Shown in pieces: positions 24,970 through 63,829 of a stretch of DNA of 64,000 nt. Every line of letters starts with the position of its first letter. The first letter of the stretch is position 1. Made by a program: the position numbers and the translations under genes. Origin of the DNA: Escherichia coli (GTDB lineage: Bacteria; Pseudomonadota; Gammaproteobacteria; Enterobacterales; Enterobacteriaceae); assembly GCF_003334385.1 (NCBI RefSeq), contig NZ_QOWN01000025.1; one strand, given 5' to 3'. The notes beneath the pieces were generated by a model. It ran no database searches, was not told the DNA's origin, and saw nothing but the letters and a program-made list of their open reading frames with translations.

Positions 24970-26146
24970 ATTGCAGACCGCGCTCTTTCAGGCGTTCGAT
25001 ACCCTGAATCTGCAACGGGTAAAAACATTTAGCGTTCCACCGGTGACGCTTTGCGGTCCGGGCTCGGTGAGCAGTTGCGGACAGCAAGCGCAAACGCGTG
25101 GGCTGAAACATCTGTTCGTGATGGCAGACAGCTTTTTGCATCAGGCAGGGATGACCGCCGGGCTGACGCGTAGCCTGACCGTTAAAGGTATCGCCATGAC
25201 GCTCTGGCCATGTCCGGTGGGCGAACCGTGCATTACCGACGTGTGTGCAGCCGTGGCGCAGTTGCGTGAGTCAGGCTGTGATGGGGTGATCGCGTTTGGC
25301 GGCGGCTCGGTGCTGGATGCGGCGAAAGCCGTGACGTTGCTGGTGACGAACCCGGATAGCACGCTGGCAGAGATGTCAGAAACCAGCGTTCTGCAACCGC
25401 GCTTGCCGCTGATTGCCATTCCAACTACCGCCGGAACCGGCTCTGAAACCACCAATGTAACGGTGATTATCGACGCGGTGAGCGGGCGCAAGCAGGTGTT
25501 AGCCCATGCCTCGCTGATGCCGGATGTGGCGATCCTCGACGCCGCATTGACCGAAGGTGTGCCGTCGCATGTCACGGCGATGACCGGCATTGATGCGTTA
25601 ACCCATGCCATTGAAGCATACAGCGCCCTGAACGCTACACCGTTTACCGACAGTCTGGCGATTGGTGCCATTGCGATGATTGGCAAATCGCTGCCGAAAG
25701 CGGTGGGCTACGGTCACGACCTTGCCGCGCGCGAGAGCATGTTGCTGGCTTCATGTATGGCGGGAATGGCGTTTTCCAGTGCGGGTCTTGGGTTGTGCCA
25801 CGCGATGGCGCATCAGCCGGGCGCGGCGCTGCATATTCCGCACGGTCTCGCGAACGCCATGTTGCTGCCAACGGTGATGGAATTTAACCGGATGGTTTGT
25901 CGTGAACGCTTTAGTCAGATTGGTCGGGCACTGCGAACTAAAAAATCCGACGATCGTGACGCTATTAACGCGGTAAGTGAGCTGATTGCGGAAGTTGGGA
26001 TTGGTAAACGACTGGGCGATGTTGGTGCGACATCTGCGCATTACGGCGCATGGGCGCAGGCCGCGCTGGAAGATATTTGTCTGCGCAGTAACCCGCGTAC
26101 CGCCAGCCTGGAGCAGATTGTCGGCCTGTACGCAGCGGCGCAATAA
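24959..26146 (+). CDS. eutG: iron-containing alcohol dehydrogenase EutG
   Basis: ORF 24932..26146; Met at 24959 gives 395 aa; Fe-ADH motifs. Confidence 0.9.
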   Translation: MQNELQTALFQAFDTLNLQRVKTFSVPPVTLCGPGSVSSCGQQAQTRGLKHLFVMADSFLHQAGMTAGLTRSLTVKGIAMTLWPCPVGEPCITDVCAAVAQLRESGCDGVIAFGGGSVLDAAKAVTLLVTNPDSTLAEMSETSVLQPRLPLIAIPTTAGTGSETTNVTVIIDAVSGRKQVLAHASLMPDVAILDAALTEGVPSHVTAMTGIDALTHAIEAYSALNATPFTDSLAIGAIAMIGKSLPKAVGYGHDLAARESMLLASCMAGMAFSSAGLGLCHAMAHQPGAALHIPHGLANAMLLPTVMEFNRMVCRERFSQIGRALRTKKSDDRDAINAVSELIAEVGIGKRLGDVGATSAHYGAWAQAALEDICLRSNPRTASLEQIVGLYAAAQ

Positions 26147-26148
26147 AT

Positions 26149-26335
<187 letters not shown>

Positions 26336-27589: not shown

Positions 27590-28989
27590 ACACTCGCCAG
27601 CTATTGAGCGTCGGTATCGATATCGGCACCACCACCACCCAGGTGATTTTCTCCCGGCTGGAGCTGGTTAACCGTGCGGCGGTGTCGCAGGTGCCGCGCT
27701 ACGAATTCATTAAACGCGAAATTAGCTGGCAAAGTCCGGTGTTCTTTACCCCTGTCGATAAACAGGGCGGTTTAAAAGAAGCGGAACTGAAAACCTTAAT
27801 ACTCGAGCAATATCATGCTGCGGGTATTGAGCCGGAAAGCGTTGATTCTGGTGCCATCATCATCACCGGTGAAAGCGCGAAAACCCGCAATGCTCGCCCG
27901 GCGGTGATGGCGCTCTCTCAGTCGCTGGGCGATTTTGTCGTTGCCAGCGCCGGGCCGCACCTCGAATCCGTGATCGCCGGTCACGGAGCCGGGGCACAAA
28001 CCCTTTCTGAACAACGGCTGTGTCGGGTACTGAATATCGACATCGGCGGTGGCACCGCGAACTACGCCCTGTTCGATGCCGGAAAAATCAGCGGCACTGC
28101 CTGCCTCAACGTCGGTGGTCGCCTGCTGGAAACCGACAGCCACGGGCGCGTGGTTTACGCTCATAAACCGGGGCAGATGATTGTGGATGAGTGCTTCGGT
28201 GCAGGCACCGACGCCCGTTCGCTGACCGGCGCGCAGCTGGTGCAGGTGACCCGGCGGATGGCAGAACTGATTGTCGAAGTGATTGACGGAACGCTCTCAC
28301 CGCTCGCGCAGGCATTGATGCAAACCGGTTTGCTGCCCGCAGGTGTTACGCCCGAAATCATTACGCTTTCTGGCGGCGTGGGCGAATGTTATCGCCACCA
28401 GCCCGCCGACCCGTTCTGTTTTGCCGATATTGGCCCGCTGCTGGCAACTGCGCTGCATGACCATCCGCGCCTGCGTGAGATGAACGTACAGTTTCCGGCG
28501 CAAACCGTGCGCGCCACGGTGATTGGCGCGGGCGCGCATACCCTTTCGCTCTCTGGCAGCACAATCTGGCTTGAGGGCGTACAACTGCCGCTGCGCAATT
28601 TGCCGGTGGCGATCCCGATTGATGAAACGGATCTGGTGGGGGCCTGGCAACAGGCGCTGATTCAGCTGGATCTTGATCCCAAAACTGACGCGTACGTGCT
28701 GGCGCTTCCCGCCTCGCTGCCTGTGCGTTACGCCGCGGTACTGACGGTCATCAACGCGTTGGTCGATTTCGTCGCGCGTTTTCCGAATCCGCATCCCCTG
28801 CTGGTGGTGGCCGGGCAGGACTTTGGTAAAGCTCTGGGCATGTTGTTGCGCCCACAGCTACAACAACTCCCGTTGGCAGTCATTGACGAAGTGATTGTCC
28901 GCGCGGGGGACTATATCGACATTGGTACGCCTCTTTTTGGCGGATCGGTTGTGCCGGTGACGGTGAAATCACTCGCATTTCCTTCCTGA
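27586..28989 (+). CDS. eutA: ethanolamine ammonia-lyase reactivase EutA
   Basis: 467 aa; matches EutA. Confidence 0.92.
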   Translation: MNTRQLLSVGIDIGTTTTQVIFSRLELVNRAAVSQVPRYEFIKREISWQSPVFFTPVDKQGGLKEAELKTLILEQYHAAGIEPESVDSGAIIITGESAKTRNARPAVMALSQSLGDFVVASAGPHLESVIAGHGAGAQTLSEQRLCRVLNIDIGGGTANYALFDAGKISGTACLNVGGRLLETDSHGRVVYAHKPGQMIVDECFGAGTDARSLTGAQLVQVTRRMAELIVEVIDGTLSPLAQALMQTGLLPAGVTPEIITLSGGVGECYRHQPADPFCFADIGPLLATALHDHPRLREMNVQFPAQTVRATVIGAGAHTLSLSGSTIWLEGVQLPLRNLPVAIPIDETDLVGAWQQALIQLDLDPKTDAYVLALPASLPVRYAAVLTVINALVDFVARFPNPHPLLVVAGQDFGKALGMLLRPQLQQLPLAVIDEVIVRAGDYIDIGTPLFGGSVVPVTVKSLAFPS

Positions 28990-29000
28990 GGGAACGACTT

Positions 29001-30363
29001 ATGAAACTAAAGACCACATTGTTCGGCAATGTATATCAGTTTAAGGATGTAAAAGAGGTGCTGGCTAAAGCCAACGAACTGCGTTCGGGGGATGTGCTGG
29101 CGGGCGTCGCAGCGGCAAGCTCACAGGAGCGCGTGGCGGCAAAGCAGGTGTTGTCGGAAATGACCGTAGCGGACATCCGCAATAATCCGGTGATTGCCTA
29201 TGAAGATGACTGCGTGACGCGGCTGATTCAGGACGATGTTAACGAAACGGCCTACAACCAGATTAAAAACTGGAGCATCAGCGAACTGCGTGAGTATGTG
29301 CTGAGCGATGAAACCAGCGTGGACGACATTGCCTTTACCCGCAAAGGGCTGACCTCGGAAGTGGTCGCGGCGGTAGCGAAGATTTGCTCCAACGCGGACC
29401 TGATCTACGGCGCGAAGAAAATGCCGGTAATCAAAAAGGCCAATACCACCATCGGTATTCCGGGCACCTTTAGCGCCCGTTTGCAGCCAAATGACACCCG
29501 TGACGACGTGCAAAGTATCGCCGCGCAAATCTACGAAGGGCTTTCCTTCGGGGTGGGCGATGCGGTGATCGGCGTTAACCCGGTGACTGACGACGTGGAA
29601 AACTTAAGCCGCGTGTTGGATACCATCTATGGCGTGATCGACAAATTCAACATCCCAACTCAGGGCTGTGTACTGGCGCACGTCACCACCCAGATCGAAG
29701 CGATCCGTCGTGGCGCACCGGGCGGGCTGATTTTCCAGAGTATCTGTGGCAGCGAAAAAGGGCTGAAAGAGTTTGGCGTGGAGCTGGCGATGCTCGACGA
29801 AGCGCGCGCAGTGGGCGCGGAGTTCAACCGTATCGCCGGGGGAAAACTGCCTCTACTTCGAAACCGGACAAGGCTCTGCGCTATCCGCTGGCGCTAACTT
29901 CGGCGCAGACCAGGTAACGATGGAAGCACGTAACTACGGGCTGGCGCGTCATTACGATCCGTTTATCGTCAACACCGTGGTCGGCTTTATTGGGCCGGAG
30001 TATCTCTACAACGACCGCCAGATTATCCGTGCTGGCTTAGAAGATCACTTTATGGGCAAGCTGAGCGGCATCTCTATGGGCTGTGACTGCTGTTATACCA
30101 ACCACGCTGACGCTGACCAGAACCTCAACGAAAACCTGATGATCCTGCTCGCCACCGCAGGCTGCAACTACATCATGGGGATGCCGCTGGGTGATGACAT
30201 CATGCTCAACTACCAGACCACCGCATTCCACGATACCGCCACTGTGCGTCAGTTACTCAACCTGCGCCCGTCACCGGAGTTTGAACGCTGGCTGGAAAGC
30301 ATGGGCATTATGGCAAACGGTCGCCTGACCAAACGGGCGGGCGATCCGTCACTGTTCTTCTGA
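29001..30363 (+). pseudogene. eutB: ethanolamine ammonia-lyase heavy chain EutB, interrupted by +1 frameshift (or homopolymer sequencing error)
   Basis: ORF 29001..29897 matches EutB residues 1 to about 281, then diverges after ...EFNRIAG; ORF 29773..30363 in the +1 frame matches the EutB C-terminus from ENCLYFETGQGS... to the end; the shift coincides with the G5 run at 29838..29842 where gcc ggg gaa aac is expected. Confidence 0.8.
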
Positions 30364-38035: not shown

Positions 38036-38116
38036 GCGTTTCTGATTCATTGATTAAAGGCCAGGCAGTAACATTACTGACTGGCCTCAGATTGTTGACC
38101 AAGTGCGCGTTGTACA

Positions 38117-38216
38117 CGCCGGATGCGGCGTGAACGCCTTATCCGGCCTACGAAATCGTGCTAATTCAATATATTGTGGGCTCCACGTAGGCCTGATAAG
38201 CGTAGCGCATCAGGCA
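38117..38216. repeat. REP/BIME between yfeX and yfeW
   Basis: gccggatgcggcgtgaacgccttatccggcctac and ggcctgataagcgtagcgcatcaggc palindromes. Confidence 0.8.
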
Positions 38217-38274
38217 GTTTTGCGTTTGTCAGCACTCTCAGACCAGCCAGTAACATTACTGACTGGCCTTTTTA

Positions 38275-49009: not shown

Positions 49010-49048
49010 GGATTAATAGCATCGGAGACTGATGACAAACGCAAAACT

Positions 49049-49150
<102 letters not shown>

Positions 49151-49197
49151 ACAAAGCGCACTTTTTTAACAGTTGTTGCTGCCGACAAATGCAGTAT

Positions 49198-54300: not shown

Positions 54301-55272
54301 TTACTGTTGCAATTCTTTCTCAGTGAAGAGATCGGCAAACAATGCGGTGCTTAAATAACGCTCACCCGATGATGGTAGAATAACCACAATATTCTTGTTG
54401 GTAAAGCTTTCATCTTCTTGTAGTTTCAACGCCGCGGCAACAGCTGCTCCAGAAGAGATACCTGCAAGAATACCTTCTTCTTCCATCAGACGACGCGCGG
54501 TAGAAATCGCTTCTTCATTGGTGATGCCAATGACTTTATCGACCAGCTTGAGATCGAGGTTAGCCGGGATAAAACCAGCGCCAATACCCTGAATTTTATG
54601 CGGGCCAGGTTTAATCTCTTCACCTGCCAGCGCCTGGGCGATAACTGGAGAATCGGTTGGCTCAACGGCGACAGAGATAAGATCGGTCTTGCCTTTGGTG
54701 CCTTTAATGTAGCGGCTGACGCCAGTCAGCGTACCGCCAGTCCCAACGCCAGCAATAAATACATCAACCTGACCGTCGGTATCTTCCCATATCTCCAGAC
54801 CGGTGGTCTTTTCGTGAATTTCAGGGTTTGCCGGATTGCTGAATTGTTGCAGCAGCAGGTATTTCTCTGGATTGCTGGCGACAATTTCTTCTGCTTTTTG
54901 GATTGCGCCTTTCATGCCTTTAGCACCTTCCGTCAGCACCAGGTTTGCACCTAACGCTTTCAGCAGCTTGCGGCGTTCAATACTCATGGTTTCTGGCATG
55001 GTCAGGGTGAGTTTGTAACCGCGAGCGGCAGCTACATAGGCCAGTGCAATCCCGGTATTACCGCTGGTCGGTTCAACCAGTTCAACGCCTGGTTTCAGCA
55101 CGCCGCGCTTTTCGGCATCCCAAATCATGTTGGCACCGATACGGCACTTAACGCTGAAGCTGGGGTTACGAGATTCCACCTTCGCCAGAATGCGTCCGTT
55201 ACCGATGCGATTCAGGCGAACCAGCGGCGTGTGACCGATAGTCAGCGAGTTATCTTCAAAAATCTTACTCAT
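54301..55272 (-). CDS. cysK: cysteine synthase A (O-acetylserine sulfhydrylase A)
   Basis: 323 aa; PLP-dependent; matches CysK. Confidence 0.97.
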
Positions 55273-55456
55273 GGCCTGTCCTTAACTGTATGAAATTGGG
55301 ATACAACAGGTAGCATACCCGCTCAGAGAATATGCGGAAGTAAGGATTTAGCATATCTATATACAGAAGGGAAATAATGACATGCAAGATGGAATAAGGG
55401 GCGGCATAAGCCACCCCTGTTTCACACAAACGGTTTACAAAATAACCGGTAGATTG

Positions 55457-56218
55457 TTACCGCCACATCGCGTGTTTATCGCGATAGCAATCGACCCACA
55501 TCGCCGTCGCGCCACAAACGGCAACGGGCATGATGAACAGATTAAGCAGCGGGATCATCGTAAACAGGCTGGTTAAAGCACCAAACTGCATATTGGTGAT
55601 TTTGCGTGTGCGCAGGGCGGTGCGCATCTCTTTAAACGGCACTTTGTGGTTATCGAAGGGGTAATCGCAATACTGGATGGCTAACATCCAGGCGCTAAAC
55701 AGGAACCACAGTACCGGCGCGACGGTTTGCCCAATACCAGGGATGAAGTAAAGAATTAGTAATACAATTGCGCGCGGCAGATACCAGGCAAATTTTTGCC
55801 ATTCGCGTTTCATGATTCGCGGCACATCTTTCATGATACCGAAAATCCCGGTATCTGGCGGTGTAGCGCCAGTCAATCGTGCTTCCAGTTGTTCAGCCAA
55901 TAAACCGTTAAACGGAGCGGCAATCCAGTTAGCAATCGTGGAGAAGAAATAGCCAAACACTAACAGCACAGAGATGACAGCCAGAGGCCACAACAGATAA
56001 CTCAGCCATTGTAGCCAGTCCGGAACGTAACTCATGAGAGTCGGGATCCAGACATCGAGCTGTGTAAAGAGCCACCAGAATGCGCCCCCCATCAACAAAA
56101 TATTGACCAGCAGCGGTAAAATAACGAAACGCCGAATCCCAGGTTGCGAGACGAGCTTCCAGCCTTGCGCAAAATAGTAAAAACCGCTGCGTGGGGCAGA
56201 TGTGAATGATGAAACCAT
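55457..56218 (-). CDS. cysZ: sulfate transporter CysZ
   Basis: 253 aa membrane protein. Confidence 0.93.
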
Positions 56219-56447
56219 AATCAGGATGAGCTCCTTTTGACCAATCCCAGGAAAATTCTGCGTATTTTACCGGGTAATTGCGCAATGGACAGTTAGGATA
56301 TGTTCGAAAAAACAGCAAAAAGCACGATTTCATCTATCTTTGTGCTGTGAAAGTTAATAGTGCACTTGCACTTGAGGTAATCGGCAAATACTCTTAGTGA
56401 GTAAATGTTTGCCGTGGTGGCAAGGTGTTAGAACAACAGAGAATATA

Positions 56448-57434
56448 ATGATGCAGGATTTGCGTCTGATATTAATCATTGTTGGCGCGATCGCCATAAT
56501 CGCTTTACTGGTACATGGTTTCTGGACCAGCCGTAAAGAACGATCTTCTATGTTCCGCGATCGGCCATTAAAACGAATGAAGTCAAAACGTGACGACGAT
56601 TCTTATGACGAGGATGTCGAAGATGATGAGGGCGTTGGTGAGGTTCGTGTTCACCGCGTGAATCATGCCCCGGCTAACGCTCAGGAGCATGAGGCTGCTC
56701 GTCCGTCGCCGCAACACCAGTACCAACCGCCTTATGCGTCTGCGCAGCCGCGTCAACCGGTCCAGCAGCCGCCTGAAGCGCAGGTACCGCCGCAACATGC
56801 TCCGCATCCAGCGCAGCCGGTGCAGCAGCCTGCCTATCAGCCGCAGCCTGAACAGCCGTTGCAGCAGCCAGTTTCGCCACAGGTCGCGCCAGCGCCGCAG
56901 CCTGTGCATTCAGCACCGCAACCGGCACAACAGGCTTTCCAGCCTGCAGAACCCGTAGCGGCACCACAGCCTGAGCCTGTAGCGGAACCTGCTCCAGTTA
57001 TGGATAAACCGAAGCGCAAAGAAGCGGTGATTATCATGAACGTCGCGGCGCATCACGGTAGCGAGCTAAACGGTGAACTGCTTCTTAACAGCATTCAACA
57101 AGCGGGCTTCATTTTTGGCGATATGAATATTTACCATCGTCATCTTAGCCCGGATGGCAGCGGCCCGGCGTTATTCAGCCTGGCGAATATGGTGAAACCG
57201 GGAACCTTTGATCCTGAAATGAAGGATTTCACTACTCCGGGTGTCACTATCTTTATGCAGGTACCGTCTTACGGTGACGAGCTGCAGAACTTCAAGCTGA
57301 TGCTGCAATCTGCGCAGCATATTGCCGATGAAGTGGGCGGTGTCGTGCTTGACGATCAGCGCCGTATGATGACTCCGCAGAAATTGCGCGAGTACCAGGA
57401 CATCATCCGCGAAGTCAAAGACGCCAACGCCTGA
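56448..57434 (+). CDS. zipA: cell division protein ZipA
   Basis: ORF 56397..57434; Met at 56448 gives 328 aa; N-terminal TM, P/Q-rich linker, C-terminal FtsZ-binding domain. Confidence 0.93.
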
Positions 57435-57465
57435 TACACTTAAGGCAAATTAACTCCTCTTCGAA

Positions 57466-57487
57466 CCCCCGCTTGTCGGGGGTTTTT
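57466..57487 (+). terminator. possible attenuator/terminator hairpin between zipA and ligA
   Basis: cccccgcttgtcgggggttttt. Confidence 0.45.
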
Positions 57488-57495
57488 AGCATTGA

Positions 57496-59520
<2,025 letters not shown>

Positions 59521-59521
59521 G

Positions 59522-59740
59522 ATGGAAAAAGAGCAGCTGATTGAAATAGCCAATACGATAATGCCGTTTGGCAAATACAAAGGGCGTCGCTTAATCGACC
59601 TGCCGGAGGAGTATCTGCTGTGGTTTGCCCGCAAAGATGAGTTCCCGGCAGGGAAGCTCGGTGAGCTAATGCAAATCACGCTGCTGATTAAAACCGAGGG
59701 GCTGACGCAACTGGTCCAGCCCCTGAAGCGTCCGCTTTAA
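59522..59740 (+). CDS. ypeB: DUF3820 small protein YpeB
   Basis: ORF 59429..59740; Met at 59522 gives 72 aa (MEKEQLIEIANTIMPFGKYKGRRL...). Confidence 0.85.
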   Translation: MEKEQLIEIANTIMPFGKYKGRRLIDLPEEYLLWFARKDEFPAGKLGELMQITLLIKTEGLTQLVQPLKRPL

Positions 59741-60735
59741 GCTTTATCGGCGCTGCTTTCCTGCTGCGCCTGTAACTGTTCGGTCTGGCGTTTGTATCGA
59801 CGCGCCAGCACCGCACAGACCATCAATTGGATCTGATGGAAAATCATCAGGGGCAGCACCATCATACCGATCACCGATGTGGGGAACAGAATGTTTGCCA
59901 TCGGGATGCCATTTGCCAGACTCTTTTTCGAACCACAAAAGACGATAGTAATTTCATCTGCCTTATTGAAGCTCAGTCGGCGTGCCATAAAGACGTTAAC
60001 TACAATCACGATAGCCAGAAGAACGCAGCTGACCACCACGATAAACAGCAATGATCCCCAGCCAACTTTATGCCAGATACCATTAACGACGGCTTCGCTG
60101 AACGCTGTATAAACCACCAACAGAATGGACGTCTGGTCAGTTTTCGCAATCCATTTTTTATTGCGCGACACCCAGTCACCAATCCACGGCCGGGAAAGAT
60201 GCCCCAACACAAACGGCAGCAGCAGTTGCAGCATAATTTTACCGACCTGCTCAAGGCTGCCCCCTGCACCGTGAACATTCATCACCAGACCAACCAGCAA
60301 TGGTGAAAGGAAAATCCCCAGCAGGCTGGATGCCGACGCAGAACAAACCGCTGCCGCGACGTTACCGCCCGCCATTGACGTGAAGGCGATTGCAGACTGC
60401 ACGGTAGCCGGGAGAATGCACAAGTAGAGAAAACCGGAGTAGAGCATCGGGTCGACATTTACCGGTTTCCACCAGGCAAACAGTACACCCAGAATCGGAA
60501 ACAGCACGAAGGTGCTGCACATTACCCACAAATGCAGTCGCCAGTGACCACCGCCAGCAATAATCGCCTCACGCGACAACTTCGCGCCGTGCATAAAGAA
60601 CAGCAGGGCAATAGCTGCGGTGGTCAGATTTTCAAAGAAGGGGACGAAATCGCCTCTGGCCGGAAAGAAAGAGGCCAGCAACACCACCGTGATCAGGGTT
60701 AAGGTGAAAGGATCGAGGATACGAAAAAGTTTCAT
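59737..60735 (-). CDS. yfeH: bile acid:sodium symporter-family membrane protein YfeH
   Basis: 332 aa polytopic membrane protein. Confidence 0.9.
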   Translation of the reverse strand: MKLFRILDPFTLTLITVVLLASFFPARGDFVPFFENLTTAAIALLFFMHGAKLSREAIIAGGGHWRLHLWVMCSTFVLFPILGVLFAWWKPVNVDPMLYSGFLYLCILPATVQSAIAFTSMAGGNVAAAVCSASASSLLGIFLSPLLVGLVMNVHGAGGSLEQVGKIMLQLLLPFVLGHLSRPWIGDWVSRNKKWIAKTDQTSILLVVYTAFSEAVVNGIWHKVGWGSLLFIVVVSCVLLAIVIVVNVFMARRLSFNKADEITIVFCGSKKSLANGIPMANILFPTSVIGMMVLPLMIFHQIQLMVCAVLARRYKRQTEQLQAQQESSADKA

Positions 60736-60824
60736 AAAGACTCCAGATGATCGATGGTTCTATTGTGCTTCTTCCAGTTTGAGAAATAAAATTGATTTAT
60801 TGCATCCATTCATGAAGAAAACAG

Positions 60825-61100
60825 ATGACTTATTCTTTAAAACAATTAAAGGTTTTCGTCACAGTAGCGCAGGAGAAAAGTTTTAGTCGTGCAGGAGAGC
60901 GTATCGGCCTGAGCCAGTCGGCAGTGAGTCACAGTGTGAAGGAACTGGAAAATCATACTGGTGTTCGCCTGCTGGACAGAACCACGCGTGAAGTGGTGCT
61001 TACAGATGCAGGGCAGCAGCTGGCTTTGCGTCTTGAGCGACTGCTGGATGAACTGAACAGCACGTTGCGCGATACCGGGCGTATGGGGCAACGATTATGA
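60825..61100 (+). pseudogene. yfeR: LysR-family regulator YfeR, truncated to the N-terminal HTH domain (about 91 codons)
   Basis: [42 protein letters not shown]... is a LysR HTH; the ORF stops at a TGA overlapping the xapB ATG; no co-inducer-binding domain follows. Confidence 0.8.
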
Positions 61101-62353
61101 GCATCGCGATGCGCTTAAAGGTAATGTCCTTTTTGCAATATTTTATCTGGGGGAGCTGGCTGGTTACCCTCGGCTCTTACATGATTAATACTCTTCATTT
61201 CACCGGCGCTAATGTTGGCATGGTTTACAGTTCCAAAGGGATCGCCGCGATTATTATGCCTGGTATAATGGGGATCATCGCAGACAAATGGCTGCGCGCA
61301 GAACGTGCATACATGCTGTGTCACCTGGTGTGTGCGGGCGTACTTTTTTATGCGGCATCCGTAACTGATCCGGATATGATGTTTTGGGTGATGTTAGTCA
61401 ATGCGATGGCGTTTATGCCGACTATTGCGTTATCGAACAGCGTCTCTTATTCCTGTCTTGCCCAGGCAGGGCTTGACCCGGTGACCGCTTTCCCGCCCAT
61501 TCGCGTTTTTGGTACGGTGGGGTTCATTGTCGCGATGTGGGCAGTAAGCCTGCTGCATCTGGAATTGAGTAGTCTGCAGCTGTATATCGCGTCCGGTGCG
61601 TCATTGCTGCTGTCGGCTTATGCGCTGACTTTGCCGAAGATTCCGGTTGCGGAGAAAAAAGCGACCACATCGCTTGCCAGCAAGCTGGGTCTGGATGCCT
61701 TCGTGCTGTTTAAAAATCCACGCATGGCCATCTTTTTCCTCTTTGCCATGATGCTGGGTGCGGTACTGCAAATTACCAACGTTTTTGGTAATCCGTTCCT
61801 ACATGATTTCGCCCGTAACCCGGAGTTTGCTGACAGTTTTGTGGTGAAATATCCCTCCATTTTACTGTCAGTTTCACAGATGGCAGAAGTGGGCTTTATA
61901 CTGACTATCCCATTCTTTTTAAAGCGATTTGGCATTAAAACCGTCATGCTGATGAGTATGGTGGCCTGGACGCTGCGCTTTGGCTTCTTCGCCTATGGCG
62001 ATCCGTCAACAACCGGATTTATTTTGCTGCTGCTGTCGATGATTGTTTATGGCTGTGCATTCGATTTCTTCAATATTTCTGGTTCGGTATTTGTCGAACA
62101 GGAAGTTGATTCCAGCATTCGTGCCAGCGCGCAGGGGCTCTTTATGACCATGGTAAATGGTGTCGGCGCATGGGTTGGCTCGATTCTGAGTGGCATGGCA
62201 GTAGATTACTTTTCGGTGGATGGCGTAAAAGACTGGCAAACTATCTGGCTGGTGTTTGCAGGATATGCTCTTTTTCTCGCAGTGATATTTTTCTTTGGGT
62301 TTAAATATAATCATGACCCTGAAAAGATAAAGCATCGAGCGGTGACTCATTAA
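61097..62353 (+). CDS. xapB: xanthosine permease (NupG-family nucleoside:H+ symporter)
   Basis: 418 aa; NupG-like sequence immediately upstream of xapR. Confidence 0.88.
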
Positions 62354-62405
62354 AAGGATTCGCGGCTCTGCTCTTCAGAGCTGCTTTTATGATAAAGGTT
62401 AATTA

Positions 62406-62564
62406 GTGAAAGATATTTTATTTTCTTCCGGCGTTGGTTTTGGTATTGGTGCTTTGTTTACAATCGTGCGCTTGCCTATTCCTGTACCAAATGTATTACC
62501 GGGTATATTATCCATTGTGTTTATGTATGTCGGATATCTGGTGGTGAAATACTTTATGCCATGA
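62406..62564 (+). CDS. candidate small hydrophobic protein (52 aa, GTG start) between xapB and xapR
   Basis: gtg...tga encoding VKDILFSSGVGFGIGALFTIVRLPIPVPNVLPGILSIVFMYVGYLVVKYFMP; weak SD aaagg 7 nt upstream; too short for the supplied ORF track. Confidence 0.35.
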   Translation: MKDILFSSGVGFGIGALFTIVRLPIPVPNVLPGILSIVFMYVGYLVVKYFMP

Positions 62565-62604
62565 TAATTTAATACGATGTATTTATTATATGGAGCACTT
62601 AATT

Positions 62605-63489
62605 ATGGAACGCGTATACAGAACAGATCTTAAGTTGCTCCGTTATTTTCTTGCCGTAGCGGAAGAGTTGCATTTTGGCCGCGCAGCAGCGCGTTTAAAT
62701 ATGTCTCAGCCTCCGCTCAGCATTCATATTAAAGAGCTGGAAAATCAACTCGGCACGCAGCTTTTTATTCGCCATTCGCGCAGCGTCGTACTGACACACG
62801 CGGGCAAAATCTTGATGGAAGAATCGCGTCGATTGCTGGTGAATGCTAATAATGTATTGGCTCGGATTGAACAAATAGGTCGGGGAGAAGCAGGGCGGAT
62901 TGAACTCGGCGTAGTGGGAACGGCAATGTGGGGACGGATGCGCCCGGTTATGCGGCGATTCCTCAGGGAAAATCCTAACGTTGACGTTCTTTTTCGCGAA
63001 AAGATGCCCGCGATGCAAATGGCCTTGCTGGAACGCCGCGAACTTGATGCCGGGATCTGGCGAATGGCGACAGAACCACCGACTGGTTTTACCAGCTTAC
63101 GGTTGCATGAATCGGCGTTTCTGGTGGCGATGCCTGAAGAGCATCATCTCTCATCATTTTCCACCGTCCCGCTGGAAGCGCTACGTGACGAGTATTTTGT
63201 TACAATGCCGCCCGTTTACACTGACTGGGATTTTTTGCAGCGAGTTTGCCAGCAGGTGGGATTTTCACCGGTTGTTATTCGCGAAGTTAATGAACCGCAA
63301 ACGGTACTCGCTATGGTCAGTATGGGCATTGGTATCACATTGATAGCGGACAGCTACGCACAAATGAACTGGCCAGGTGTCATTTTCCGTCCGCTCAAAC
63401 AGCGCATCCCTGCAGATTTATATATTGTTTATGAAACACAGCAGGTGACGCCCGCGATGGTTAAGCTGTTGGCTGCATTGACACAGTAG
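62605..63489 (+). CDS. xapR: LysR-family xanthosine-responsive activator XapR
   Basis: ORF 62590..63489; Met at 62605 gives 294 aa (MERVYRTDLKLLRYFLAVAEELHFGRAA...). Confidence 0.9.
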   Translation: MERVYRTDLKLLRYFLAVAEELHFGRAAARLNMSQPPLSIHIKELENQLGTQLFIRHSRSVVLTHAGKILMEESRRLLVNANNVLARIEQIGRGEAGRIELGVVGTAMWGRMRPVMRRFLRENPNVDVLFREKMPAMQMALLERRELDAGIWRMATEPPTGFTSLRLHESAFLVAMPEEHHLSSFSTVPLEALRDEYFVTMPPVYTDWDFLQRVCQQVGFSPVVIREVNEPQTVLAMVSMGIGITLIADSYAQMNWPGVIFRPLKQRIPADLYIVYETQQVTPAMVKLLAALTQ

Positions 63490-63565
63490 GTGAGGAGACA
63501 GGAATTGCCGGAAATAGTAGTCTGCTAAGTGAAGCGCATCAGGCAATTTCGCAAATCGCAGATAG

Positions 63566-63594
63566 CAAAAAAGCGCCTTTAGGGCGCTTTTTTA
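63566..63594. terminator. rho-independent terminator hairpin, copy 1
   Basis: aaaaaagcgcctttagggcgctttttt; sits in the duplicated 60-bp unit. Confidence 0.7.
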
Positions 63595-63722
63595 CATTGG
63601 TGGGTCGTGCAGGATGACTCGCTTCGCTCGCCCTTCGGGCCGTCGCCGCGAGCGGCTCCGTTGTTTCGCTGCGCTCAACTCAAACCTGCTGCAGGTTCGA
63701 ATCTTTGAGTATCGCAGATAGT

Positions 63723-63750
63723 AAAAAAGCGCCTTTAGGGCGCTTTTTTA
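63723..63750. terminator. rho-independent terminator of the val-lys tRNA operon, copy 2
   Basis: aaaaaagcgcctttagggcgctttttt immediately 3' of lysV on the minus strand. Confidence 0.8.
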
Positions 63751-63753
63751 CAT

Positions 63754-63829
63754 TGGTGGGTCGTGCAGGATTCGAACCTGCGACCAATTGATTAAAAGTC
63801 AACTGCTCTACCAACTGAGCTAACGACCC
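63754..63829 (-). tRNA. lysV: tRNA-Lys (anticodon UUU)
   Basis: Reverse complement reads GGGTCGTTAGCTCAGTTGGTAGAGCAGTTGACTTTTAATCAATTGGTCGCAGGTTCGAATCCTGCACGACCCACCA. Confidence 0.95.

What the first reader, a model, noticed from the sequence alone, without database searches (positions are those of the whole stretch)
60825..61110. yfeR is truncated and fused to xapB: apparent loss of yfeR 3' part, yfeN and xapA
In the K-12 arrangement the order is yfeH - yfeR (LysR regulator, about 308 aa) - yfeN - xapA - xapB - xapR. Here the yfeR frame runs only about 91 codons (HTH domain) and ends at a TGA that overlaps the xapB ATG (caacgattATGAgc). Nothing resembling the YfeR effector domain, YfeN or the purine nucleoside phosphorylase XapA is present. 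This implies a roughly 2.5-3 kb deletion that places xapB under yfeR transcription with translational coupling to a LysR HTH-only peptide, and removes xanthosine phosphorylase while keeping the permease and activator. It could be a natural strain-specific deletion or an engineered or assembly artefact.
Basis: partly seen in the sequence, partly recalled or inferred. Interest (0 to 1): 0.6.

Follow-up and report, generated by a model that had tools for sequence, protein, structure and literature searches.

The report
Strain-specific yfeR–xapA deletion in E. coli
One rare natural E. coli lineage has lost 2.6 kb, removing most of the regulator gene yfeR, the channel gene yfeN and the xanthosine-degrading gene xapA, and this ordinary gene loss leaves the transporter gene xapB joined to the yfeR stub.

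Summary
Compared with MG1655 and close natural relatives, the window lacks exactly 2,599 bp. Left homology ends at 61092 and right homology starts at 61090, so the two sides share 3 bp (AAC).

The deletion removes yfeR codons 90-308, all of yfeN, the XapR-dependent xapA promoter, xapA, and all but 7 nt of the xapA-xapB spacer. What remains:
- A 91-codon yfeR stub (60825-61100), made of the HTH domain plus linker helix, whose TGA overlaps the xapB ATG (61097).
- xapB, the small DUF1427 ORF and xapR, all identical to K-12.

The junction is not a misassembly. An independent short-read contig (ERR1948963, reported for 7 samples) matches the window 100% over 8.76 kb across the junction. There is no scar or foreign DNA. 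The strain is a wild phylogroup-A lineage, not K-12.

None of 5,426 complete RefSeq genomes carries the junction, and a near-identical relative has the locus intact. The yfeN-xapAB block is itself accessory, absent from about a quarter of genomes.

Best reading: a spontaneous, lineage-specific deletion that abolishes xanthosine catabolism. That xapB is now expressed from the yfeR promoter is plausible but untested. Interest is low.

The parts
59737..60735 (-). yfeH (bile acid:sodium symporter family), intact and divergent from yfeR
   Evidence: 332-aa ORF. Annotated as yfeH in MG1655 at the colinear position.
60736..60824 (.). yfeH-yfeR divergent intergenic region. It is the only native promoter region left upstream of xapB.
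   Evidence: Identical to MG1655. RpoD holoenzyme binds this spacer in genomic SELEX (PMC3946193). YbfA binds and activates PyfeR (PMC11227560). The strict sigma-70 consensus scan finds nothing here.
60825..61100 (+). Truncated yfeR (yfeR'): 91 codons, made of 89 native residues (wHTH plus linker helix), then R-L and a stop. It carries the lineage-specific N2T change at 60829.
   Evidence: ORF list. Pfam PF00126 HTH_1 only. It aligns to residues about 3-90 of solved LysR regulators and to stand-alone DBD constructs of 90-101 aa, namely 3m1e/4ihs BenM, 5xxp CbnR and 7trv. The SNP is listed.
61090..61092 (.). Deletion junction: the 3-bp microhomology AAC shared by both ancestral breakpoints
   Evidence: The left match runs to 61092 and the right match starts at 61090. 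2,599 bp of MG1655 (L001 6494-9092) are missing.
61097..62353 (+). xapB (xanthosine/H+ symporter, NHS family), intact. Its ATG overlaps the yfeR' TGA. Only 7 nt of its native leader remain, and the native AAGGA Shine-Dalgarno is gone.
   Evidence: 418-aa ORF. No mismatches to MG1655 from 61090 onward. Pfam PF03825 Nuc_H_symport. Shine-Dalgarno duplex energies are -5.4 kcal/mol (WT AAGGA) against -4.7 kcal/mol (new GGGG at 61085-61088).
62362..62384 (+). Terminator-like hairpin after xapB, as in the wild type
62406..62564 (+). Small DUF1427 ORF between xapB and xapR, intact
62605..63489 (+). xapR (LysR-type xanthosine-dependent activator), intact, but its target promoter PxapA has been deleted
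   Evidence: Colinear and identical to the MG1655 xapR. HTH_1 plus LysR_substrate domains. The two XapR sites lie in the xapAB promoter upstream of xapA (PMC7205307), which is inside the deleted interval.

Best explanation
This is a spontaneous, lineage-specific 2,599-bp chromosomal deletion in a wild phylogroup-A E. coli.

Origin (inferred): illegitimate, RecA-independent joining such as replication slippage or end joining at a 3-bp microhomology (AAC). One breakpoint is in yfeR codon 90 and the other is 7 nt upstream of the xapB start codon.

Shown by sequence:
- The YfeR effector and oligomerisation domain, the Tsx-family outer-membrane channel YfeN, the XapR/xanthosine-dependent xapA promoter and xanthosine phosphorylase XapA are all gone.
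- xapB, the DUF1427 ORF and xapR are intact.

Inferred from established knowledge of the xap system:
- The lineage cannot phosphorolyse xanthosine.
- XapR has lost its only known target promoter, so the xanthosine switch is dismantled.

Inferred and untested:
- xapB can now be transcribed only as the second cistron of a yfeR'-xapB message from the yfeR promoter.
- Its translation would come from a weak GGGG Shine-Dalgarno and/or termination-reinitiation at the ATGA overlap.
- The 91-aa YfeR' equals the DBD plus linker-helix fragment that folds and binds DNA as a dimer in other LysR proteins. It could persist as an effector-blind DNA-binding peptide, or it could simply be a pseudogene product.

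The most economical view is neutral or nearly neutral decay of an accessory catabolic locus, not a designed or selected rewiring.
For: - Breakpoints, size and microhomology.
- Gene content of the lost interval: with Pfam labels (Channel_Tsx for YfeN, PNP_UDP_1 for XapA).
- The junction is real: a Logan short-read contig from ERR1948963, reported for 7 samples, is 100% identical to window 54825-63584.
- A lineage marker, the MurP double variant, is found in draft GCA_002190145.1 and three third-party assemblies. By coordinate arithmetic, that draft contig ends within 2 bp of where the Logan contig ends. This fits only if it also carries the deletion.
- The deletion is derived and recent. Relative GCA_028651895.1 differs by 3 SNPs in 16.8 kb and has yfeR (308 aa)-yfeN-xapA-xapB intact.
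- 5,405 of 5,426 complete genomes have at least 80% of yfeR. None of the 5,426 has the junction.
- The junction is also absent from GTDB species representatives and JGI metagenomes.
- The locus is dispensable. The yfeN-xapA-xapB block is absent from about 1,327 of 5,426 genomes, and PMC9602453 and PMC2395238 describe xap as patchy and horizontally transferred.
- No scar, IS or foreign DNA lies at the junction.
- No terminator-like site lies between yfeR' and xapB.
- Shine-Dalgarno energies are comparable.
- Stand-alone LysR DBD constructs of the same length have solved structures.
Against: - A 3-bp microhomology is only weakly diagnostic. By my own calculation, about 5% of random junctions show 3 bp or more, so the deletion mechanism itself is not demonstrated.
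- Neutrality is assumed, not shown. The stub also carries a private N2T change, which could reflect either decay or nothing at all.
- No expression data exist for yfeR'-xapB.
- I could not inspect raw reads.
- I could not identify the strain or check that xapA and yfeN are absent from the rest of its genome.
Confidence: 0.85

Rival explanations
1. Selected regulatory rewiring. The deletion was retained because it creates a new yfeR'-xapB operon. XapB is then made independently of xanthosine and XapR, from the YbfA-activated yfeR promoter, and imports nucleosides without XapA degrading them. The HTH-only YfeR' acts as an effector-blind or dominant-negative regulator.
For: - The architecture permits it. 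The stop and start overlap as ATGA, a usable GGGG Shine-Dalgarno-like element sits 8 nt upstream (-4.7 against -5.4 kcal/mol in the wild type), and no intervening terminator is predicted.
- xapB and xapR have not accumulated any mutation.
- DBD plus linker-helix fragments of LysR proteins are stable DNA-binding dimers.
- PyfeR is a regulated, active promoter (PMC11227560).
Against: - The event is confined to one small lineage: 7 runs and a few assemblies, and 0 of 5,426 complete genomes. There is no parallel occurrence.
- Intact xapB and xapR are expected anyway for a recent deletion, because the sister lineage differs by only about 2 SNPs per 10 kb.
- The ATGA overlap follows automatically from the reading frame, with about a 1 in 3 chance.
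- The whole xap block is lost outright in a quarter of genomes.
Confidence: 0.08
2. Engineered deletion, for example removal of xapA in a nucleoside-production or laboratory strain.
For: - The junction is clean and scarless.
- xapA is a known knockout target in nucleoside-overproducing strains (my own knowledge, not tested here).
Against: - The breakpoints lie inside yfeR codon 90 and 7 nt before xapB, which is not a rational design. They needlessly remove yfeN and two thirds of yfeR.
- There is no FRT, lox or marker sequence.
- The background is not K-12. It lacks CPZ-55, like 4,965 of 5,426 natural genomes.
- It carries natural alleles shared with dozens to hundreds of wild assemblies, including the cysK and yfeX variants and a eutB frameshift.
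- The junction appears in several sequencing runs and third-party surveillance assemblies.
Confidence: 0.03
3. Assembly artefact: two regions falsely joined.
For: The junction is absent from every complete RefSeq genome.
Against: - An independently built short-read contig, reported for 7 samples, is identical across the junction.
- Only 3 bp are shared between the two sides. No repeat exists that could collapse a de Bruijn or overlap graph.
- A separate NCBI draft contig has the spacing expected for the deletion.
Confidence: 0.02
4. The short form is ancestral, and K-12 acquired yfeN-xapA plus the yfeR 3' end by insertion.
For: The xap block is an accessory, horizontally transferred island.
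Against: - Full-length yfeR is near-universal, in 5,405 of 5,426 genomes. This includes genomes that lack the xap block altogether, as in L005 and L013.
- The nearest relative has the long form with identical flanks.
- The stub ends with two junction-encoded residues and lacks the effector domain that defines the family.
Confidence: 0.01

Closest known systems
E. coli K-12 xapABR xanthosine utilisation locus with neighbours yfeR and yfeN (Seeger et al. 1995, as summarised in PMC7205307)
   Same: The chromosomal position between yfeH and the lysV-valYXU tRNA cluster is the same. xapB, the DUF1427 ORF and xapR are 100% identical, and the first 89 codons of yfeR match except for N2T.
   Different: It lacks xapA, the XapR-activated xapA promoter, yfeN and yfeR codons 90-308. 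xapB abuts yfeR' instead of xapA.
Presence/absence polymorphism of the yfeN-xapABR block in E. coli
   Same: It is another case of loss of xanthosine catabolism at a locus that about 24% of complete genomes lack. In those genomes yfeR is followed by a FlxA-like ORF and then the tRNAs and gltX (PMC9602453).
   Different: Those genomes lack the whole block and keep a full-length yfeR. Here the loss is partial and internal: it cuts into the near-core gene yfeR and leaves the permease and activator orphaned.
Stand-alone DNA-binding-domain fragments of LysR-type regulators (BenM DBD 3m1e/4ihs/4iht, CbnR DBD 5xxp, 7trv)
   Same: The extent is the same, wHTH plus linker helix at about 90-100 residues. 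Such fragments are known to fold, and for BenM to bind operator DNA.
   Different: Those are laboratory constructs. Whether natural YfeR' is made, stable or active is unknown.
Microhomology-mediated (illegitimate) deletions and operon fusions in bacterial genome decay
   Same: Flanks are colinear, one copy of a short direct repeat is retained, nothing is inserted, and a downstream gene is placed behind an upstream promoter.
   Different: Nothing distinguishes it in kind. The microhomology is only 3 bp.

Membership tests
LysR-type transcriptional regulator (full-length LTTR) | N-terminal winged helix-turn-helix DNA-binding domain (Pfam PF00126) | tested here: met
   A PF00126 hit is on record for the 91-aa product. 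It aligns to residues about 3-90 of solved LTTRs at E-values down to 1.6e-14.
LysR-type transcriptional regulator (full-length LTTR) | C-terminal effector-binding/oligomerisation domain (Pfam PF03466 LysR_substrate) | tested here: not met
   The ORF stops at codon 91. The intact orthologue of 308 aa has HTH_1 plus LysR_substrate. The coding DNA for residues 90-308 is absent from the whole window.
xapABR xanthosine catabolic system | Xanthosine phosphorylase XapA (PNP_UDP_1) | tested here: not met
   xapA lies inside the deleted interval. There is no blastn match to it anywhere in the window. The rest of the genome could not be examined.
xapABR xanthosine catabolic system | Xanthosine/H+ symporter XapB | tested here: met
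   418-aa ORF at 61097-62353, with no mismatches to MG1655. Pfam Nuc_H_symport.
xapABR xanthosine catabolic system | Activator XapR | tested here: met
   xapR (62605-63489) is intact and identical to MG1655.
xapABR xanthosine catabolic system | XapR-dependent promoter upstream of xapA | tested here: not met
   The yfeN-xapA intergenic region that holds the two XapR sites (PMC7205307) is deleted.
Spontaneous microhomology-mediated deletion | Flanks colinear with the ancestral sequence, a short direct repeat at both ancestral breakpoints with one copy retained, and no inserted DNA | tested here: met
   One search shows AAC at both breakpoints with one copy kept and no extra bases. The ancestral state is confirmed in MG1655, strain 1303, PSS-16 and GCA_028651895.1. 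A 3-bp repeat is weak evidence for the mechanism itself.
Engineered deletion (recombineering, FRT or lox scar) | Scar, marker or designed gene-boundary breakpoints | tested here: not met
   The junction reads GGGGCAAC|GATTATG with no foreign bases, and the breakpoints are mid-codon and mid-leader.
Translationally coupled gene pair | Overlapping stop and start codons (ATGA) on one transcript | tested here: met
   The TGA of yfeR' (61098-61100) overlaps the ATG of xapB (61097-61099). No terminator-like site lies between them.
Translationally coupled gene pair | Downstream translation depends on upstream translation | not testable with these tools
   This needs reporter fusions. The only computational hint is that the predicted local fold sequesters the GGGG element in a hairpin that a translating ribosome would open.

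The most novel reading that the evidence does not exclude
The deletion has created a functional two-gene operon, yfeR'-xapB.
- An effector-blind, HTH-only YfeR peptide still binds YfeR operators such as Pfnr.
- A nucleoside permease is now expressed under the YbfA/osmolarity/biofilm-linked yfeR promoter, uncoupled from xanthosine, XapR and XapA.
- This would be a natural example of promoter capture plus regulator truncation, retained because it benefits this lineage.
Probability: 0.07. Interest if true: 0.4.

Novelty: already known. Interest (0 to 1): 0.12.

Why it matters
It matters little beyond strain annotation. The lineage should be scored as xanthosine-negative and, by K-12 precedent (PMC3923242), lacking XapA-dependent nicotinamide salvage. 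yfeR, xapB and xapR should be flagged as a truncated gene and as orphaned remnants rather than a working system.

It is a clean, datable example of how an accessory catabolic locus decays piecemeal, and of how a deletion can accidentally place a transporter behind a foreign promoter. It has modest value as a lineage marker: the junction 35-mer was absent from the 5,426 complete RefSeq genomes, the GTDB representatives and the JGI metagenomes searched.

Tried and rejected
1. Engineered reduced-genome or recoded K-12 strain. I raised this because CPZ-55 is also missing. I rejected it because the empty eutA-eutB site is the normal state in 4,965 of 5,426 genomes. The window also shares natural SNPs with wild phylogroup-A strains.

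2. Mutagenised or mutator strain. I raised this because 5 of the 6 SNPs that differ from the closest complete genomes are nonsynonymous. I rejected it because the cysK and yfeX alleles occur in 62 and 94 contigs from other assemblies, so they are natural alleles.

3. Recurrent truncation hotspot at YfeR residues 88-92. The 90%-identity protein cluster holds 84 short YfeR forms. I rejected the idea for three reasons. Clustering groups proteins of similar length. The members I inspected are a frameshift allele (90 aa plus 174 aa) or end at a contig end, and the tails of the others look like further frameshifts or contig-end cuts. Only about 21 of 5,426 complete genomes lack a near-full yfeR.

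4. Strain identification. Full-text searches for ERR19489*, LYBI01 and GCA_002190145 found nothing.

5. Junction 35-mer scans of GTDB representatives and JGI metagenomes found no hits.

6. Seeger et al. 1995 (PMC177358) is not held in the library. xap regulation is therefore cited second-hand from PMC7205307.

Full report
**What is in the sequence**

Window 59737-63489 reads as follows:
- yfeH on the minus strand (59737-60735).
- An 89-bp spacer.
- A 91-codon ORF (60825-61100).
- A 418-codon ORF (61097-62353) whose ATG overlaps the preceding TGA (caacgattATGAgc).
- A 52-codon ORF.
- xapR.

In MG1655 (NZ_CP012868.1) the same interval is yfeH / yfeR (927 bp, 308 aa) / yfeN (minus strand) / xapA / xapB / DUF1427 ORF / xapR / RtT-like element / lysV-valYXU.

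**Breakpoints**

- Base-by-base extension against MG1655 shows left homology through window 61092 (L001 6493). Right homology starts at window 61090 (L001 9090).
- The missing interval is 2,599 bp (L001 6494-9092, with 3 bp of placement ambiguity).
- The trinucleotide AAC is present at both ancestral breakpoints and once in the window. There are no extra bases, no IS end and no scar.
- The deletion removes yfeR codons 90-308, all of yfeN, the yfeN-xapA intergenic region, xapA, and all but 7 nt of the xapA-xapB spacer.
- No fragment of the lost DNA occurs elsewhere in the 64-kb window.
- From 61090 to 63829 the window is identical to MG1655, so XapB, the small ORF and XapR are wild type.
- The stub consists of 89 native residues plus R-L. 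It also carries N2T (60829 A->C), which no complete RefSeq genome has.

**Is the junction real?**

- An exact-sequence look-up of the 91-aa product found a Logan short-read contig (ERR1948963_36, 14.45 kb), reported for 7 samples. It has the same gene order, HTH_1 91 aa / Nuc_H_symport 418 aa / LysR 294 aa.
- That contig is 100% identical to window 54825-63584 with no gaps.
- Only 3 bp are shared across the junction, so no repeat exists that could cause a false join.
- A lineage marker, MurP with two substitutions (39903 and 39999), occurs in NCBI draft GCA_002190145.1 (contig LYBI01000528.1) and three third-party assemblies.
- Using the murP coordinates, that draft contig begins at the equivalent of window ~63582. 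The Logan contig ends at 63584, at the RtT/tRNA repeat. The agreement holds only if the draft also lacks the 2.6 kb. This last point is my inference.

I consider misassembly excluded for practical purposes.

**Is it derived, and how common is it?**

- The junction query (60600-61400) hit all 5,426 complete RefSeq E. coli genomes, but in none did one place span it. Every listed best match stops at query position 493, which is window 61092.
- A 35-mer across the junction is absent from the GTDB species representatives and the JGI metagenome contigs.
- yfeR is close to core: at least 80% of it is present in 5,405 of 5,426 genomes.
- The nearest relative I found, GCA_028651895.1 (L014), differs from the window by 3 SNPs in 16.8 kb. 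It carries yfeR (308 aa), yfeN (Channel_Tsx), xapA (PNP_UDP_1), xapB and xapR intact, with identical flanks.

The deletion therefore arose on a short terminal branch of a natural lineage.

**Background strain**

- The window is 99.95% identical to MG1655 but is not K-12.
- It has the unoccupied CPZ-55 site between eutA and eutB, like 4,965 of 5,426 genomes.
- It shares SNPs with wild phylogroup-A strains such as 1303 and PSS-16.
- It carries cysK and yfeX alleles present in 62 and 94 contigs, and a eutB frameshift indexed in 204 blocks of the public collection.

Together with the irrational breakpoints and the absence of a scar, this argues strongly against engineering.

**Context of the locus**

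- The yfeN-xapA-xapB block is present (at least 80% coverage) in 4,064 of 5,426 complete genomes. It is absent from about 1,327 of them, and about 1,640 carry a ~92%-identity allele, as in UTI89.
- In genomes lacking the block, a full-length yfeR is followed by a FlxA-like ORF and then the tRNAs and gltX.
- Losing xanthosine catabolism is therefore commonplace. What is unusual here is only that the loss is partial and cuts into yfeR.

**Consequences**

Shown by the sequence:
- There is no XapA, no YfeN and no YfeR effector domain.
- PxapA, with its two XapR sites (PMC7205307), is gone.

Inferred from knowledge of the system:
- There is no xanthosine phosphorolysis.
- XapR has no known target left.
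- The XapB positive-feedback and XapA negative-feedback switch described in PMC7205307 cannot operate.
- The XapA-dependent nicotinamide route to NAD+ (PMC3923242) is also lost.

Inferred about xapB expression:
- xapB can be transcribed only by read-through from the yfeR promoter region.
- No terminator-like site and no strong sigma-70 consensus lies between 60825 and 61097.
- The native AAGGA Shine-Dalgarno (-5.4 kcal/mol against the anti-SD) is replaced by GGGG at 61085-61088, 8 nt before the ATG (-4.7 kcal/mol).
- In the predicted local fold that GGGG sits inside a hairpin, so ribosomes finishing yfeR' at the ATGA overlap would favour xapB initiation.
- PyfeR is bound and activated by YbfA, and full-length YfeR did not bind PyfeR in EMSA (PMC11227560). 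Autoregulation by the stub is therefore not expected.

About the stub itself:
- YfeR' spans the same residues as crystallised stand-alone LysR DBD plus linker-helix constructs: BenM 3m1e/4ihs/4iht, CbnR 5xxp and 7trv. It could fold and bind DNA.
- Whether it does is untested.

**Mechanism of the deletion**

- A clean junction with one retained copy of a 3-bp repeat fits slippage or illegitimate recombination.
- By my own calculation, P(k) = (k+1)(1/4)^k(3/4)^2. Microhomology of 3 bp or more is then expected at about 5% of random junctions, so this is suggestive only.
- The ATGA overlap follows from the reading frame, with about a 1 in 3 chance, and needs no special explanation.

**Verdict**

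This is an ordinary gene-loss allele in a known, dispensable locus. It is rare but unremarkable in kind.

The only reading with some novelty is that the accidental yfeR'-xapB fusion is functional and selected. The sequence allows it, but the allele's restriction to one small lineage and the lack of any parallel event give it no support.

Noticed in passing
window 29001-30363 (indel at 29838): eutB, the ethanolamine ammonia-lyase large subunit, is split into ORFs of 298 aa and 196 aa by one extra G in a GGGG(G) run relative to MG1655. The 298-aa product is an exact match to genes indexed in 204 blocks of the public collection, including SPAdes short-read contigs. It is therefore a real and widespread natural frameshift allele, not a sequencing error.
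   Followed up: partly
window 28967-28989: The CPZ-55 prophage (about 6.8 kb, intZ to yffS in MG1655) is absent. eutA runs straight into eutB. This empty site is the common state, found in 4,965 of 5,426 complete genomes.
   Followed up: yes
window 37670, 39903, 39999, 54797, 57840, 60829: Six SNPs separate the window from its closest complete RefSeq genomes. Five are nonsynonymous: yfeX N->H, murP G->E and P->L, cysK P->L, and yfeR N2T. ligA carries the one synonymous change. The cysK and yfeX alleles are shared with 62 and 94 other contigs, whereas the murP double variant is restricted to this lineage at 5-7 contigs.
   Followed up: partly
window 63555-63771: An RtT-like element (Rfam RF00391, 63598-63723, minus strand) is flanked by a 61-bp direct repeat (63555-63615 and 63711-63771) that duplicates the 3' end of lysV and its terminator. 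The arrangement is as in MG1655 and PSS-16, but it is absent from strain 1303. Short-read contigs of this lineage break here.
   Followed up: partly
window 63830: There is a 1-bp deletion of an A in the 4-nt spacer between tRNA-Lys (lysV) and the adjacent tRNA-Val, relative to MG1655 and PSS-16.
   Followed up: no
L005 5001-5926; L006, L008: An unrelated yfeR pseudogene allele exists in other E. coli lineages. A frameshift splits it into 90-aa (HTH) and 174-aa (LysR_substrate) ORFs. It is seen in at least 24 contigs, in genomes that lack the whole yfeN-xapABR block and have a FlxA-like ORF instead.
   Followed up: partly
window 26145-26332; 38101-38242 and 49025-49163: An ~88-bp tandem direct repeat lies in the eutG-eutH spacer. 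A pair of inverted copies of ~140 bp at 89% identity, probably REP/BIME-type elements, lies downstream of yfeX and cysM. Both are also present in MG1655.
   Followed up: no
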